This document shows positions 16,391 to 50,375 of a DNA stretch of 64,000 nt, piece by piece (the stretch's first letter is position 1; every line of letters begins with the position of its first letter). Under the pieces are notes generated by a model, which saw only the letters and a list, made by a program, of their open reading frames with translations, made no database searches and was not told where the DNA came from. The DNA is from Octopus sinensis (Eukaryota). Location: contig NC_043007.1 in NCBI RefSeq assembly GCF_006345805.1, positions 4,712,001-4,776,000 of the forward strand. The letters are read 5' to 3'. Position numbers and translations under genes: made by a program.

Positions 16391-17135
16391 AAAAAGAAAA
16401 CTAGATCTGTAGATGCTATAGAAAGATAGCCAGACATTTAATAGCCCTGCCTGTACAAGCATGCATTAACATCCATATGTATACAGGGACACAAACACAC
16501 ACAGATATTCAGCAGAGAGGAGCTCTGATGCAAACCCTCCACATTAAGAAAAAACAACAAAGGACAATAAACCCTTCCCTTCTGTTTTGTTATCCCAGCT
16601 GAGGTCAACTCGACTCCACCTCCCTACCCTCACCCGCTTGCCAGGCATCACCCCCACCCCTTTATGTTTTTATGTTTATAGTTCAGAATTCAAATTCATC
16701 CTGCTAACAACCCAAACCTCTACCACCACCGCCACCACCATCATCACACAGGACTGCCCCCTTGACATCATAACCGACCACCTCACCCTCCACGTACTCC
16801 TTAGTGTAAGGGCTGTTGAGGTCCTTATTTCTCTTGAAGTGCTCAGATTAGATAAGGCAACAACATGTGTGTTCATGCTATCATGTGACAGCCACTCACA
16901 ATCCTCCTCCTCCTCCCCCACCATTTCCCTTTGATGAACCTGCACCAAGCGACACACACATTCACATATTAATATGCATATTCAATCATGCTATATATAT
17001 ATACACACACATACTGTCCAGCCCGTGCTAGCGTGGAAGACAGACGTTAAACGATGATGATGATGATGATGATGATGATGTCACACGGCTGTCCATGTAT
17101 TTATCTTTCCATATAAATATATGTAACGGGGGGGG

Positions 17136-17330
17136 GGGAAGTTTACGAAAATAAACAAAAGACGAAGGCAGGTGGAATACAAACAAACAATTGTATTAGT
17201 ATGGCGCTCAGGAATAGAAATAGAAAAAGTCTTTTACGTTTCGACCCTACGCTCCTCTACAGAAAGATACACAGAAAAGAAACAAGGAGAGAAACAAATG
17301 CATGTAAAATAAAGAGAAAACGAAAGGGAC
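17136..17330 (-). mobile_element. PLE pLTR-type repeat (family C) with variant hammerhead
   Basis: Homologous to 48676-48845; minus strand tcttt-CTGTAGA-ggagcgtagggtc-GAAA-cgTA-aaaga. Confidence 0.7.
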
Positions 17331-17478
17331 AGTATATCTATATGTATATATATATATGTGTGTATATAAATTCGGGGTGAGTACTTGATAATTATAAGCA
17401 CCTGTGTATACCGTTTGGTGGTGTAGGTGGTGGAGTAAATTGATCAAAATAAAATAAAAACATGATGCGAAGGATTCA

Positions 17479-17556
17479 GCGGTACATATGTTTCGGGCCT
17501 TTATTAGACAGATTTATAACAATGCATAATGTATGTCTGTGGCCTTCTTCAGCCGC
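17479..17556 (-). ncRNA. Minimal type I hammerhead ribozyme (inverted copy)
   Basis: Exact reverse complement of 19511-19588. Confidence 0.8.
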
Positions 17557-19510
17557 GCACAACAGCTTCCACAAGGACATGTGTTACATCAAAAATTCTT
17601 AATCTTATTAACAAAAGGTCAGAGTTCAAACCATCCTGTATACATAAACTTATTAATACTTTCAAATACTACAATGCTTAAGTCTTATACCAATTCCCCC
17701 ATGCAATTTCCTCCCACCCGGTGCAACCTGTCGGCTCCAGCACATCCCGCTTTCCTATATGTGCGTGTATATGTGTATGTGTGTGTGTGTGTGCGTATGT
17801 ATGTGCACATACGTGTACGTATGTGTACGTATACATATATATGTACATGTGCGTGTGTGTGTGTGTGTGTGGGTGTGTGTACGTGCATATAGGGTTCCCT
17901 GCATTTTCCCCCTATATATACAAATTTTGTCTCCCATATATGACTTCTTTTCCCTAAATATTTCTTCTCCTACACCCATATCCTCCCTATGTAGTCTCTT
18001 TAATCCCCTATATCTATACCCTTTCACATTTCTAACTCAGATGTTGAACGCACACCGCCAAACTCCACTTCCCACCCTTCCAATTTTCAGTTCCCCCCGC
18101 CCGCCCCTACGTTTAACACACAACTTTAAACTTTACAAAATTATATTTTTATCTTATTTTATTTTATTTTTATTTTTACTTTTATTTTTACTTTTATCCT
18201 ACTTCCATTTATTTTTATTTTTATTTTTAATTTTATTTTTACTTTTATTCTACTTCCATTTATTCTCATTTTCATCCCTTACCTTAACTCTTATAATTTT
18301 TATAATTCTTATACTTCATTTCTAACTATTACATTGTATTTCTTATTTTATACTGTATTTTTTATTTCTAATCTTTACCCTTACCCTCATTCTTACCCCT
18401 AACTTATCGCTTTACACCTCTATATATGTTTATTTACTTACCTATGGATCCACCTTTGAATATACGAGCGTCCGCGTACGTGTGTATACGCATACATACA
18501 TATGCACGCGCATATATGTACATGCATACTTCGATATCTTATAGCTATACCCATGTGCGCGTGTGTCTCTGTGTGTGTATATGAGGGTATATGTGCACGC
18601 ACATACGGACACACAGCCGTGTGTGCGTGCGCGTATTGACATGAGTACGGGATTCTTTACATACGTTCTTATACACATCCTTTAATATCTTATACCTGGA
18701 CCTAGAGGCGTGGGCATATACGTGTGTGTATGTAGTGATGGGCGCGCGTATATACATGTGAGCGTGTACGCGCGTAATGTCCGTGTATATATGCGGATAT
18801 TCTGTTGTATGTATGTGTGTGTACGCGCGTGCGTGTGGTGCGTGTGTGTTTATGTACGTGTTTACACGCGAGTGCGTGTGTATGCTTATAGGCTTGGAGG
18901 CGTATATGTACGCGTGTATGTGGGTGTATATATCCATGATGATATGTATGTACTAGAAGTCCATTTAATTCAAGGAACCAGATTAAATGCTCAACAGCTC
19001 TGATTTACAACGCATTAAGTCCCCAGACGAAACTGTTGATGTACTGACAATTCTACAACTAAATTTTATCAATCTCCTGACCACCATGCTTGGTCCATAA
19101 CCTCTATACATCCCTTATCTTTACATTCTTTTACACTTTTATCATGTTTTTATCAGGTTTTTTTACTTTTATTTCTATTTCTATTTTTACTTTATATTTC
19201 TTTATACCCCCTTTACATCTACTTACAACCCTTTATCCTCTACATTTTTATATTATTCTATACTTACACTTTTTATACATTTTTTATCCCTCGTCCCGAA
19301 CTCTCGCCCCTCCATCTTCACCTCTATATATGTATTTATTTATTTACATTACCTCAACATCCAATTTTCCTCATTCTACATTGAGAGAAGAAAGAGATGG
19401 ACGCTTCAACTCTATGCTGCTGCCGCATTATGTCGTACGTGAATGAGAGGATTTGCATCCCCAACCAAGAATTTTTGATGTAACACATGTCCTTGTGGAA
19501 GCTGTTGTGC

Positions 19511-19588
19511 GCGGCTGAAGAAGGCCACAGACATACATTATGCATTGTTATAAATCTGTCTAATAAAGGCCCGAAACATATGTACCGC
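19511..19588 (+). ncRNA. Minimal type I hammerhead ribozyme
   Basis: Stem I gcgg/ccgc, core CTGAAGA 19515-19521, stem II ggcc...ggcc extended by acaga/tctgt, GAAA 19573-19576, palindromic stem III ACATATGT, GUA site at 19582-19584. Confidence 0.8.
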
Positions 19589-19610
19589 TGAATCCTTCGC
19601 ATCATGTTTT

Positions 19611-19652
<42 letters not shown>

Positions 19653-29102: not shown

Positions 29103-29310
29103 AAGGACAGTGAGCTGGCAGAATTGTTAGCGTGCTGGACGAAATGCTTAGCAGTATTTCACCCGTCACTATGGTCTGAGTTCAAATTCTGCTGAGGTCA
29201 GCTTTGCCTTTCATCTTTTTGGGGTCAATAAATTAAGTACCAGTCAAATACTGGGGTCAATGTAATTGACTATCCCCTTCCCCACAAATTCCAGGCCTTG
29301 TAAAAAAGGA
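29103..29310 (+). mobile_element. Family B SINE
   Basis: gagctggcagaattgttag...gagttcaaattc...ctttgcctttcatc...aagtaccag; partial copy also at 28512-28622. Confidence 0.8.
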
Positions 29311-29328
29311 TTATCATCATCATTGTCA

Positions 29329-29332
<4 letters not shown>

Positions 29333-29366
<34 letters not shown>

Positions 29367-29566
29367 GCCAGACTCGTCTGGCACCTATGCCAGTGGCACG
29401 TAAAAAGCACCCACTACACTCATGGAGTGGTTGGCATTAGGAAGGGCATCCAGCCGTAGAAACATTGCCAGATCAAACTGGGCCTGGTGCAGCCTTCTGA
29501 CTTCCCAGACCCCAGTTGAACCGTCCAACCCATGCTAGCATGGAAAGCAGACGCTAAACGATGATG

Positions 29567-29600
<34 letters not shown>

Positions 29601-29830
29601 TATTATTATTATATTATTATTATTATTGCCAGACTCGTCTGGCACCTATGCCAGTGGCACGTAAAAAGCACCCACTACACTCATGGAGTGGTTGGCATTA
29701 GGAAGGGCATCCAGCCGTAGAAACATTGCCAGATCAAACTGGGCCTGGTGCAGCCTTCTGGCTTCCCAGACCCCAGTTGAACCGTCCAACCCATGCTAGC
29801 ATGGAAAGCAGACGCTAAACGATGATGATG

Positions 29831-29875
<45 letters not shown>
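29333..29875 (+). repeat. Tandem duplication (260 bp period) of an RTE tail between (ATT)n tracts
   Basis: 29366-29568 and 29626-29832 differ at one visible base outside the tail. Confidence 0.92.
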
Positions 29876-47248: not shown

Positions 47249-48154
47249 AAAATATTCTTGTAATAATTTTGATTATTTTACCTCCTAAAAACAAAACAAA
47301 AAATTCTATATTTTCTGTTTAACTATGTTTTTACCTGACAAAAATGCAAAAATAAAATAAAGCAAAACAATAAATTTCAAACACAGAAATAGTTTCAAGT
47401 TTTAGCACAAGGCCAGCAATTTAAAGGGGAGAGACAGAAATACTAACAAGTTTTTTTTTAGTTGTATTATATTCCTTTATGTCCAAACAGTAAAACTTGA
47501 AAAATAGACAGATAGGTAATAGGAAATGGGTTCGGGAAGTAATAGGTGGGAGCACAGATGACATGAAGTGTGATAGTTGCACAGTGCCAGGGACAAAGTT
47601 AGAGGTACATAGGGGAGAAAATAGTTGGTGAAAATAGGTGGTGAGCAAAAACAGTGGGGACTATCTTGAGAGGGTGTACAGGGGAAAGGAGTAGTAAGAG
47701 GGACATTCCCTAGAAAATAGCATGAGGGATTCTATTGAAAATGTGGGTGACAAAAGGGAGTGGCTCAAAGGAGAGTGATTACAGGTAATTCAAAAATGGG
47801 AGGAAAAAGTTTGTTGATCACATCAAAAATATCCCCCAAGGAAAGCAAACAGGCTGGAGCAACAAGTACAAAAAAGAAAGAAGAAGAAGGAAAATTTTCT
47901 CCTGCAGCTACAAAACAAACCAGTCTTCTGATTACAGGATGGGATGGTCTTATATTGTAAAACCAAAATAGAAACAAATCCTTTTTTCTTTTACTGATTG
48001 TGTATCGGCGTTAGAGAACGTTAACGTCATTAGCTATAGTTTTCTAGTGGACCAATCACTGGCTTCATTGCATTTCTGACAGATGCACACGATTATGATT
48101 GAGATATACATGTGTGCAGAGGGGTTTGTGTGGGCGTATTTATATACAATGTAC

Positions 48155-48675: not shown

Positions 48676-49068
48676 AGGGACAGTTCACGAAAAAAACAAA
48701 AGACAAAAACAGGTGGTGTAGAAAACAAACAGATGTATTAGTATAACGCTCAGGAATAGAAAAAGTCTTATGTTTCGAGCCTACGCTCTTCCACAGAAAG
48801 GGACACAGAAAGAAACAAGGAGAGAAAAAAAATGTGTGTAGTGGCTAACGATCTATCATGGCGAGACCTCGTGTGTACCGTTGGCGATTTTCTTCCCTCT
48901 GTCTTCCCTTCTCTGGATCTTTCCTTCTCCTATGTTTCCGACGAAGAGCTCCGCTCGAAACGTTAAACCCTCCTTCTTTCCTTTTGTCCTGAACACTCAA
49001 TAATACTATATTTGTTCCACGTCCTCGCGTTGTTGTGTTTTTTTGTGCTTTCTTGTTTGGATTAACTT

Positions 49069-49070
<2 letters not shown>
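48676..49070. mobile_element. Two-armed PLE pLTR-type mini-element with outward-facing variant hammerheads
   Basis: Minus arm CTGTGGA-agagcgtaggctc-GAAA-caTA; plus arm gttt-CCGACGA-agagctccgctc-GAAA-cgTT-aaac. Confidence 0.7.
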
Positions 49071-49100
<30 letters not shown>

Positions 49101-50375
49101 CACAAGTTTCTACTCAGTTTCTATTCCCAAATTCCACCTGCATGACACTGATCAACCTGAGGCTGTGAGAGATGACACTTACCTGTAGTGCTTTTCAGTG
49201 GGACCGAACCTGGAACCATGGGATTAAAACAGAAGCTAACTCCTTAACCCCACAGCTATGCATGCAGACATTTTATTTCGCCACATGTCAACTCTGACCA
49301 AACAAAAACTCCACCTGTCATTTTTTCACGACACCTCAGACTTCATTATCTAATTACCCTTCTTTTTTAGGAGTTGAAGGGATCATGAAGAGTGAAAGTC
49401 TACCCCTGCTGCATAAGGCAAGCTTGTTTCTGATAGATACAATGATTTTTCAGGCTAGATACGATGAATTTTCTCTTAAATTACCCAGGTGATGAGACAA
49501 GAAAATCAGTTTTATAAAACCATGTATTTATCTGCTTCGTTTGAAATAACTACTGTTTTTATTCCATTCCATTTCTGTGAGTCTTATACTAAAAGTAATG
49601 CTGAGAACATAACGTTTTGATTGACAGTTAGAGATCGTTCAAGTGGTTTGTTTTGCTGGAGTAATTCTTCTCCCATACGAAGTTACTGCTCAACACAGGC
49701 TTCATCACAAAGGATGAATTTGCACCATCTTTGAACAGAACTTTCAACTTCATGTCATCTGTGCTCCCACCTATTACTTCCCGAACCCATTTCCTATTAC
49801 CTATCCGTCTATTTTTCAAGTTTTACTGTTTGGACATAAAGGAATATAATGCAACTAAAAAAAAACTTGTTAGTATTTCTGTCTCTCTCCTTTAAATTGC
49901 TGGCCTTGTGCTAAAACTTGAAACCATTTCTGTGTTTGAAACTTATTGTTTTGTTTTATCTTATTTTTGCATTTTTGTCAGGTAAAAACATAGTTAAACA
50001 GAAAAATTTTTGGTGTGCCTTGTTTTCCTTACTCTTCAACCACTTTCGAACAGGTGGAAGCTGGAGGACATCCAGGCTCTTCAGGGTTTCAAAATTGGTT
50101 AATTGTTTGATTTGTGTGTGGACAAAGATTGTCAGGGTGAATGAGGATCGTTTTCAGATCCTTGTTCCCTGCCGTCTTCCGATTGGTTTTTCTAAGCTTG
50201 TTCTTCTTTTTTAAGATGGTAAAGTGTGGTTTTTAGGAAGATTTGGGTGCTATTTCTAACATGACTCTCTTTATTGGCTTCTGACAAACCTGGTGGCGGA
50301 CATCGTGGACACAATGAAGTCCTGAGTATACAAACCACCGTATACTTCTTTCCACATCGCTTCTGTTTGTCTCTT

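What the first reader, a model, noticed from the sequence alone, without database searches (positions are those of the whole stretch)
17454..19613. Young 2.16 kb Penelope-like element bracketed by perfect inverted hammerhead-bearing repeats
Seen: the 147 bp arms (17454-17600, 19467-19613) are exact reverse complements. Each holds gcgg-CTGAAGA-stem II-GAAA-CATATG-TA-ccgc, an intact hammerhead core with a palindromic stem III. Right after the left arm lie 26 codons (NLINKRSEFKPSCIHK...*), then about 1.8 kb of non-coding DNA with CpG-rich dinucleotide tracts. Established: PLE pseudo-LTRs carry minimal hammerheads that cleave as dimers, and inverted partial LTRs at PLE 5' ends are known. Inference: a recent insertion of a Naiad-like PLE with an unusually long 3' region, or a retrozyme-like non-autonomous unit with a ribozyme on both strands.
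Basis: partly seen in the sequence, partly recalled or inferred. Interest (0 to 1): 0.75.

Follow-up and report, generated by a model that had tools for sequence, protein, structure and literature searches.

The report
Two-ended Hydra-clade Penelope retrotransposon insertion
This is a recent, cut-short copy of a protein-coding Penelope-type jumping gene joined back-to-back to a copy of its own ribozyme-motif-bearing end, a known layout, but across the family the two ends of such insertions were different fixed ends in every case typed, which likely records how the enzyme primes copying on both DNA strands.

Summary
The parent encodes a telomerase-like RT with a C-terminal GIY-YIG-type domain and all Hydra-clade motifs. 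It is therefore not Naiad, and not a retrozyme. The genome holds 1,310 exact copies of the hammerhead 28-mer. Inverted ends, a one-sided tail and hammerheads on both strands are all published for Penelope-like elements. Added here: 62 of 62 typed inverted insertions pair one short end with one long-tail end about 70-75 nt further on; the two arms come from one source; 13 of 32 are near-perfect palindromes (2.5 expected); truncations pile up at an Inr-like site (19373). The unit is 4.4-4.8 kb, against at most 3.0 kb for described Hydra families. The likely mechanism is priming of both nicked strands at two sites of one RNA, which is inferred only. The scan has noted this layout, and the two fixed ends, before on other octopus DNA (unchecked notes). 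New member of a known kind.

The parts
17368..19613 (+). Whole insertion (2,246 bp): inverted 233-bp long-tail arm joined head-to-head to a 2,013-bp 5'-truncated direct copy
   Evidence: BLAST to full-length copies; end typing; direct part 96-97% identical, with only 10-27 mismatches plus microsatellite gaps, to the closest fetched copies
17356..17367 (+). Left copy of a likely target-site duplication (10-14 bp, core GTGTGTATAT) in a (TA)n tract
   Evidence: Sequence; 9 of 27 informative insertions show such a duplication, 7 of them at most 14 bp; shuffled mean 1.2, maximum 5 in 300
17368..17453 (-).
   Evidence: Matches the 5' UTR between hammerhead and ORF of full-length copies; fold -9.6 kcal/mol, z -0.6 to -1.0, not significant
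17454..17600 (-). Inverted arm, exact copy of 19467-19613
17479..17556 (-). Type I minimal hammerhead motif, minus-strand copy
   Evidence: Mirror of 19511-19588
17601..17681 (+). Last 26 codons and stop of the RT-endonuclease ORF; blunt junction to the inverted arm at 17600/17601
   Evidence: 25/26 identical to the parent's C-terminus; junction overlap 0
17682..19372 (+). 1.69-kb non-coding spacer of (TG)/(CG)-rich and (TATTTT)-like pyrimidine tracts, conserved in the family
   Evidence: 1,453-1,866 nt in the 11 long copies measured; CpG o/e 1.14; shared with other copies
19335..19376 (+). Candidate core promoter: A/T-rich TATA-like tract about 30 nt upstream of an Inr-like TCA(+1)TTC, +1 at 19373 (inferred)
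   Evidence: 5' truncations pile up at this base; the Inr consensus is recalled, not from a call; no transcript start data
19467..19613 (+). Direct arm ending at a short (S-type) end, about 16 nt before the usual S site
19511..19588 (+). Type I minimal hammerhead motif with palindromic stem III, A-C mismatch at the base of stem II and a 41-nt stem II insert; predicted cut after 19584
   Evidence: activity untested
19612..19623 (+). Right copy of the likely target-site duplication (first two bases shared with the element end), followed by (TA)n

Best explanation
This is a recent 5'-truncated insertion of an autonomous Hydra-clade Penelope-like retrotransposon, made of two head-to-head copies of the element's 3' end that were likely primed on the two nicked strands of a (TA)n target at two different fixed sites of the element's RNA. 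Shown: the parent ORF, clade motifs, copy number, (TA)n targeting, one short plus one long end per inverted insertion, a shared source for both arms, and a truncation pile-up at 19373. Inferred: the transcript starts at 19373-equivalent, carries the hammerhead at about +212, the S site at about +250, the L site at about +320 and the ATG at +404; the endonuclease nicks both strands about 12-14 nt apart; one RT starts at S and one at L; each cDNA runs 5'-ward until it falls off or reaches the RNA's 5' end; the two free ends are then joined, mostly without microhomology. In this window the L-primed cDNA stopped after 233 nt and the S-primed one after 2,013 nt, just inside the ORF. The hammerhead would cut only as a dimer or with protein help, and may not be needed for insertion. 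Confidence: identity about 0.95, two-site priming on one RNA about 0.55.
For: Parent: 836-aa ORF open in 3 fetched copies; model's top seven PDB matches are telomerase RTs, best E 1.4e-9; Hydra motifs. 1,310 exact 28-mers, control 0. End rule: 47 of 47 and 15 of 15 further inverted insertions with both ends typed are one S plus one L. Neither arm type is systematically longer: S longer in 18, L in 14, within 30 nt in 15 of 47. In the contig-1 sample 13 of 32 have arms within 30 nt of each other, against 2.5 in 20,000 shuffles, maximum 9. In 12 of 21 insertions with long arms the partner arm is closer than all 40 other arms; typical own difference 0-6 against medians of 15-32. Only 12 of 62 junctions have 3 nt or more of overlap. 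13 of 104 arms start in the 15-nt bin holding the Inr-like site and 6 within 1 nt of it; 5 of 5 truncations in an independent set of 16 arms fall within 3 nt of it. In vitro, the anole PLE nicks and extends both strands and starts RT at two internal sites that match the tail ends (PMC11167929, parts 1-2 read).
Against: About 28 of some 69 contig-1 insertions show no partner arm within 6 kb (a few 5' ends unresolved), so double priming is not obligatory. One pair (L125) has an S arm plus an arm ending upstream of the hammerhead's GAAA, and some ends sit up to about 20 nt off the usual sites, including this window's right end. Arm identity could also come from gene conversion or from one active source at a time; 9 of 21 insertions had other arms at least as close. 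Some junctions at the Inr-like site lie on a natural 4-bp hairpin and fit fold-back priming (L163, L154, L168). 18 of 27 informative insertions show no clear duplication. The start site is not shown by reads, and long arms need a read-through transcript or a template jump that I could not observe.
Confidence: 0.8

Rival explanations
1. Fold-back or self-priming: one cDNA (or an antisense RNA) snaps back and copies itself, and the endonuclease later trims one end of the palindromic intermediate from L back to S.
For: Proposed for Adineta PLEs (PMC3846280, Discussion read); the tail was ascribed to endonuclease resolution (PMC8557442 passage). Explains identical arms and the excess of near-perfect palindromes. 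12 of 62 junctions have 3-8 nt overlap.
Against: Without trimming it predicts that the L arm is always the longer; S is longer in 18 of 47. 12 junctions are blunt, 10 overlap by 1-2 nt and 21 carry 1-25 unmatched bases (7 more unresolved). It gives no reason why exactly one end is trimmed in 62 of 62.
Confidence: 0.25
2. Two RNA molecules, paired through the palindromic hammerhead stem III, are packaged with one enzyme dimer and each templates one arm.
For: Two copies co-fold into the symmetric dimer in silico; metazoan PLE hammerheads are thought to act as dimers (PMC4209133, parts 1-2 read).
Against: A symmetric dimer gives no reason for a strict S/L pairing or for matched stopping points, and should yield arms of mixed subfamily, of which at most one candidate (L149) was seen among 21. 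Hammerhead mutants did not alter insertion of the anole PLE in vitro.
Confidence: 0.15
3. A non-autonomous retrozyme-like unit with a ribozyme on each strand.
For: Most copies are short and lack the ORF: 1,310 hammerhead 28-mers against 78 candidates for the 5' part of the ORF.
Against: The window copy starts inside the ORF; copies end at scattered points along a coding unit; no tandem array of short monomers, which defines non-LTR retrozymes (bioRxiv 10.64898/2026.07.22.740005, part 1 of 5 read), was seen in the fetched loci.
Confidence: 0.03
4. The inverted arm is an assembly artefact.
For: Perfect inverted repeats are hard to assemble; no reads could be laid on this locus.
Against: The arms have different outer ends, unique flanks and a target duplication; the same layout recurs in 62 loci with varying arm lengths; S and L ends also appear as loose ends in contigs of public runs.
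Confidence: 0.02

Closest known systems
Hydra clade of Penelope-like elements, including Hydra-1_Obim and Penelope-13_HM (Craig et al. 2021, PMC8557442; passages, section 11, supplementary File S1/S2 part 2 and alignment passages seen)
   Same: RT then C-terminal endonuclease; RW(K/A), DKT, CxCx5C linker, CxxC..E and N..CxH, no CCHH; sense type I hammerhead near the 3' end; (TA)n targets; Penelope-13_HM also has an inverted 5' copy with the hammerhead on both strands.
   Different: Unit 4.4-4.8 kb against 1.1-3.0 kb listed; 1.5-1.9 kb spacer after the stop codon; 836 aa with two disordered N/R/T-rich inserts (about 485-550 and 628-693) against about 700-720 aa in most homologues; hammerhead and protein differ from Hydra-1_Obim (compared by eye only); tail 70-90 nt against 30-40.
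PAc (Poseidon of Anolis carolinensis; Frangieh et al. 2024, PMC11167929; parts 1-2 of 4 read)
   Same: Two internal end sites that bound the tail, downstream of the hammerhead; AT-rich target; both strands nicked and extended in vitro.
   Different: There the sites lie inside the ORF and the tail between them is the short PLE type; here they are in the 5' UTR about 71-76 nt apart. The parts read do not test whether the two strands of one insertion use different sites.
Adineta vaga Penelope families (Arkhipova et al. 2013, PMC3846280; passages and Discussion read)
   Same: Inverted pLTR, tail on one of the inverted repeats, 8-10 bp target duplications, palindromic junctions, N-rich ORF inserts, and in Pen1 a 0.9-1.5 kb spacer before the 3' pLTR.
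   Different: Low copy number; Pen1 spacers differ between copies (captured host DNA), whereas this spacer is shared across the family; explained there by self-priming.
Naiad clade (PMC8557442)
   Same: PLE layout, (TA)n targets, present in cephalopods.
   Different: N-terminal endonuclease, DKA motif and no canonical hammerhead; all three fail here.
Metazoan non-LTR retrozymes (bioRxiv 10.64898/2026.07.22.740005, part 1 of 5; PMC7229834 search listing only)
   Same: Type I hammerhead with palindromic stem III.
   Different: Non-coding tandem monomers; this element is a truncated coding unit.

Membership tests
Penelope-like elements (EN+) | Single ORF with telomerase-like RT | tested here: met
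   836-aa ORF; model pLDDT 77.8; top seven PDB hits are TERT, best E 1.4e-9, TM about 0.3-0.4. Pfam and PDB sequence searches gave no RT hit.
Penelope-like elements (EN+) | GIY-YIG endonuclease domain | tested here: met
   VIY..YIG, R, E and N aligned across 18 sequences; Pfam GIY-YIG weak in 2 of 18 members, best E 0.012, none in the family's own protein.
Penelope-like elements (EN+) | Partial tandem (pLTR), inverted 5'-truncated copy and one-sided tail | tested here: met
   L087 shows inverted arm, pLTR, ORF, pLTR and tail.
Hydra clade | C-terminal endonuclease | tested here: met
   Endonuclease motifs at about residues 710-820.
Hydra clade | RWK and DKT motifs | tested here: met
   RRIRWA (K replaced by A) and PADKT against the definition.
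Hydra clade | CxCx5C linker; CCHH absent; CxxC and CxH beside the conserved E and N | tested here: met
   CNCRCASEC; a single C between VIY and YIG; CQLCCIE; NKRSE..CIH.
Hydra clade | Canonical type I hammerhead near the 3' end | tested here: met
   Motif and fold, comparable to rows of File S2; activity not tested.
Hydra clade | (TA)n insertion preference | tested here: met
   (TA)n or a TA-rich or (CT)n run at the typed outer ends of nearly all insertions listed.
Hydra clade | Generally short (<3 kb) | tested here: not met
   Hammerhead-to-hammerhead unit 4,366-4,769 bp in four tandem loci. The paper gives this as a tendency, not a diagnostic.
Hydra clade | Groups with reference Hydra proteins in an RT phylogeny | not tested
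   Reference proteins were seen only as supplement text and compared by eye.
Naiad clade | N-terminal endonuclease, DKA motif, no canonical hammerhead | tested here: not met
Non-LTR retrozymes | Non-coding tandem monomers each with a hammerhead | tested here: not met
   Coding unit; ORF remnant in the window.
Hammerhead ribozyme (type I, minimal) | Self-cleavage at the NUH site | not testable with these tools
   Only fold and conservation: none of the 11 positions with a variant in 9 or more of 183 arm rows lies in the core, stem I, stem III or proximal stem II; the 3' half is biased by how copies were picked.

The most novel reading that the evidence does not exclude
Every inverted insertion of this family is the footprint of one enzyme complex that primes both target strands on a single RNA at two start sites flanking a tail stem-loop, with run-off at the RNA's 5' end giving twin 'strong-stop' arms; this would make the PLE inverted repeat and tail products of obligate asymmetric double priming rather than of self-priming or endonuclease trimming.
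Probability: 0.45. Interest if true: 0.6.

Novelty: new member of a known kind. Interest (0 to 1): 0.35.

Why it matters
How Penelope-like elements make their inverted repeats and one-sided tail is still open; the published ideas are self-priming, endonuclease trimming and internal RT initiation. A young family with over a thousand near-identical ends, open ORFs, two well separated end sites and a strict pairing rule gives sharp predictions for an in vitro test. It also widens the Hydra clade to units near 5 kb, and warns that the short palindromic copies can be mistaken for MITEs or retrozymes. The locus itself is an ordinary copy.

Tried and rejected
Rfam at gathering score: 0 hits in the window. 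Pfam on the protein and PDB sequence search with the alignment: no informative hit. Folding the motif with flanks gave no hammerhead and no advantage over shuffles. Tail hairpin (lead from earlier notes): predicted in 4 of 5 folds but z only -0.2 to -1.1; the 5 subfamily substitutions inside or after it all fall on unpaired bases, which is weak. Expression: no RNA holder listed on record; contigs of 4 of the 22 listed runs, guessed to be RNA, showed no splice joint between tail and ORF, so an intron was neither found nor excluded. Presence/absence of the insertion in other samples remains untested. Homodimer prediction of residues 1-470: no verdict. Genome-wide nested patterns across the Inr-like site gave 415 against 571, but 10 of 16 inspected misses were sequence variants, so this count is not used as evidence. 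The 7 arms ending near 265 are mostly a reference break at a subfamily variant, not a second hot spot. One search's stricter typing mislabelled L123 and L153, whose printed flanks show the tail; these and L141 were left out. The spacer shows only low-complexity self-similarity and only simple-repeat ORFs; no function found. Fixed-length terminal inverted repeats (DNA transposon) rejected: arm lengths vary from about 70 to over 2,000 nt. Sequence look-up in earlier findings returned nothing.

Full report
Observation. The two 147-nt arms are exact reverse complements. The right arm holds a complete type I hammerhead motif at 19511-19588 with palindromic stem III and a predicted cut after 19584. 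The 80-nt motif folds to the hammerhead shape, and two copies co-fold to the dimer form; with flanks it does not, and it is no more stable than shuffles. Rfam has no match in the window. The spacer is CpG-rich (o/e 1.14 against 0.45). A 10-14 bp duplication in a (TA)n tract flanks it; 9 of 27 informative insertions show such a duplication against a shuffled mean of 1.2.

Parent. A search of the window's own 2.72-Gb genome gave 1,383 first-look candidates for the arm and 1,310 exact copies of a hammerhead 28-mer, control 0. Long copies carry an ORF that ends in the window's 26 codons. Of 20 loci fetched around the ORF's 5' part, three have it open over 842 codons stop to stop, 836 from the ATG. 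The predicted structure (pLDDT 77.8, two disordered inserts) matches telomerase RTs best. The protein has RWA, DKT, a CxCx5C linker, a C-terminal VIY..YIG domain without CCHH, CxxC before E and CxH after N. These are the Hydra-clade features in section 11 of PMC8557442, and the supplement's Hydra alignment looks the same by eye. Nearest database proteins are 30-39% identical, the named ones from molluscs and a bryozoan; earlier scan notes call this genome an octopus. The unit is 4,366-4,769 bp in four tandem loci, with 1,453-1,866 nt between stop codon and the Inr-like site, whereas the Hydra families listed run to 3,045 bp.

Insertion anatomy. I fetched loci for nearly all of the first 100 pattern hits on contig 1 (one hit not fetched, one only narrowly) and further loci from other searches. 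About 40 of some 69 contig-1 insertions are inverted pairs with both 3' ends facing outward; about 28 show one arm only. Ends fall at two sites, S about 40-45 nt and L about 110-117 nt after the predicted cut, and both also appear as loose ends in contigs of public runs. Of inverted pairs with both ends typed by motif, 47 of 47 and 15 of 15 more have one S and one L; two further loci had only one end in view. Six more pairs typed by BLAST agree, and one (L125) has an atypical second end. S is the longer arm in 18, L in 14, and 15 of 47 are within 30 nt; in the contig-1 subset 13 of 32 are within 30 nt against 2.5 by shuffling. Over 380 nt the two arms of an insertion differ far less than arms of different insertions; in 12 of 21 the partner is closer than all 40 others. 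Of 62 junctions, 12 overlap by 3 nt or more, 10 by 1-2, 12 are blunt, 21 have 1-25 unmatched bases and 7 are unresolved. The window's junction is blunt.

Likely start site. Among 104 arms, 13 begin in the 15-nt bin around 19373 and 6 within one base of it (five insertions), against 0-6 in the other bins below 265. In an independent set of 16 arms that reached this point but lacked the upstream pattern, all 5 true truncations lay within 3 nt of it. The base sits in TCA(+1)TTC with an A/T tract about 30 nt upstream, which resembles an initiator (recalled consensus). I infer that this is the RNA's 5' end; no read data show it.

Mechanism. The anole PLE nicks and extends both strands and starts RT at two internal sites that bound the tail, and its hammerhead is dispensable for insertion in vitro (PMC11167929). 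The simplest reading of the pairing rule, the shared source, the matched stops and the lack of arm bias is that one complex primes the two nicked strands at S and at L of one RNA, and that the cDNA ends are then joined. Fold-back with later trimming, and two RNAs held by the hammerhead dimer, remain possible. I put the three at about 0.55, 0.25 and 0.15. All these steps are inferred.

Comparison with print. Inverted 5'-truncated copies and a tail at one end are described (PMC8557442 Fig. 2 legend; PMC3846280; PMC8969392 passages). Opposite-strand hammerhead pairs are described (PMC4209133; Penelope-13_HM). N-rich inserts and a long spacer have precedent in Adineta. Six literature searches gave no paper that counts S/L pairing or describes this family; the 2005 and 2006 PLE reviews were not read, bioRxiv supplements are closed, and Repbase and Dfam could not be searched. 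Earlier notes of this scan report the same layout in octopus DNA several times, one with two fixed end sites in another repeat of this genome; they are unchecked and I reached the rule before seeing them.

Verdict. A real, young, ordinary copy of a Hydra-clade PLE family that is longer than those described. The family-wide end rule is a useful, testable addition, not a new kind of element. Interest 0.35.

Noticed in passing
window 47311-47569 and 49747-50005: 259-bp inverted arms, 97% complementary, 2,177 bp apart; the full arm matches nowhere else among the 40 candidates scored, so it looks like a local inverted duplication rather than a transposon end.
   Followed up: partly
window 48680-49070: A different repeat with two unlike hammerhead-like motifs head-to-head (minus strand near 48790, plus strand near 48944), both with altered cores.
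   Followed up: no
window 17120-17322: Worn fragment of that same other repeat, with a hammerhead-like motif on the minus strand near 17256, directly left of the insertion's target site.
   Followed up: partly
window 5573-5640: Another hammerhead-like core (CTGATGA...GAAAC...TA) on the plus strand.
   Followed up: no
window 8393-8930: 173-bp inverted arms, 93% complementary, starting after a (TA)n tract with TACGAGGG; resembles a folded-back Tc1/mariner-type end (recalled resemblance).
   Followed up: no
window 29310-29874, 63270-63820 and 13 dispersed sites: A 261-bp tandem duplication at 96-99%, a 23-bp minisatellite of 24 copies at 99%, and a dispersed SINE-like repeat ending in (GAT)n.
   Followed up: no
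L035, L042, L140, L141, L145, L176 (long ends): Several long ends run into a (CT)n tract before the (TA)n flank, which may be slippage or non-templated repeat addition at the start of copying.
   Followed up: no
L141:370-2133: Two near-identical palindromic insertions side by side, 1.1 kb apart, with matching junction region; local duplication or assembly error.
   Followed up: no
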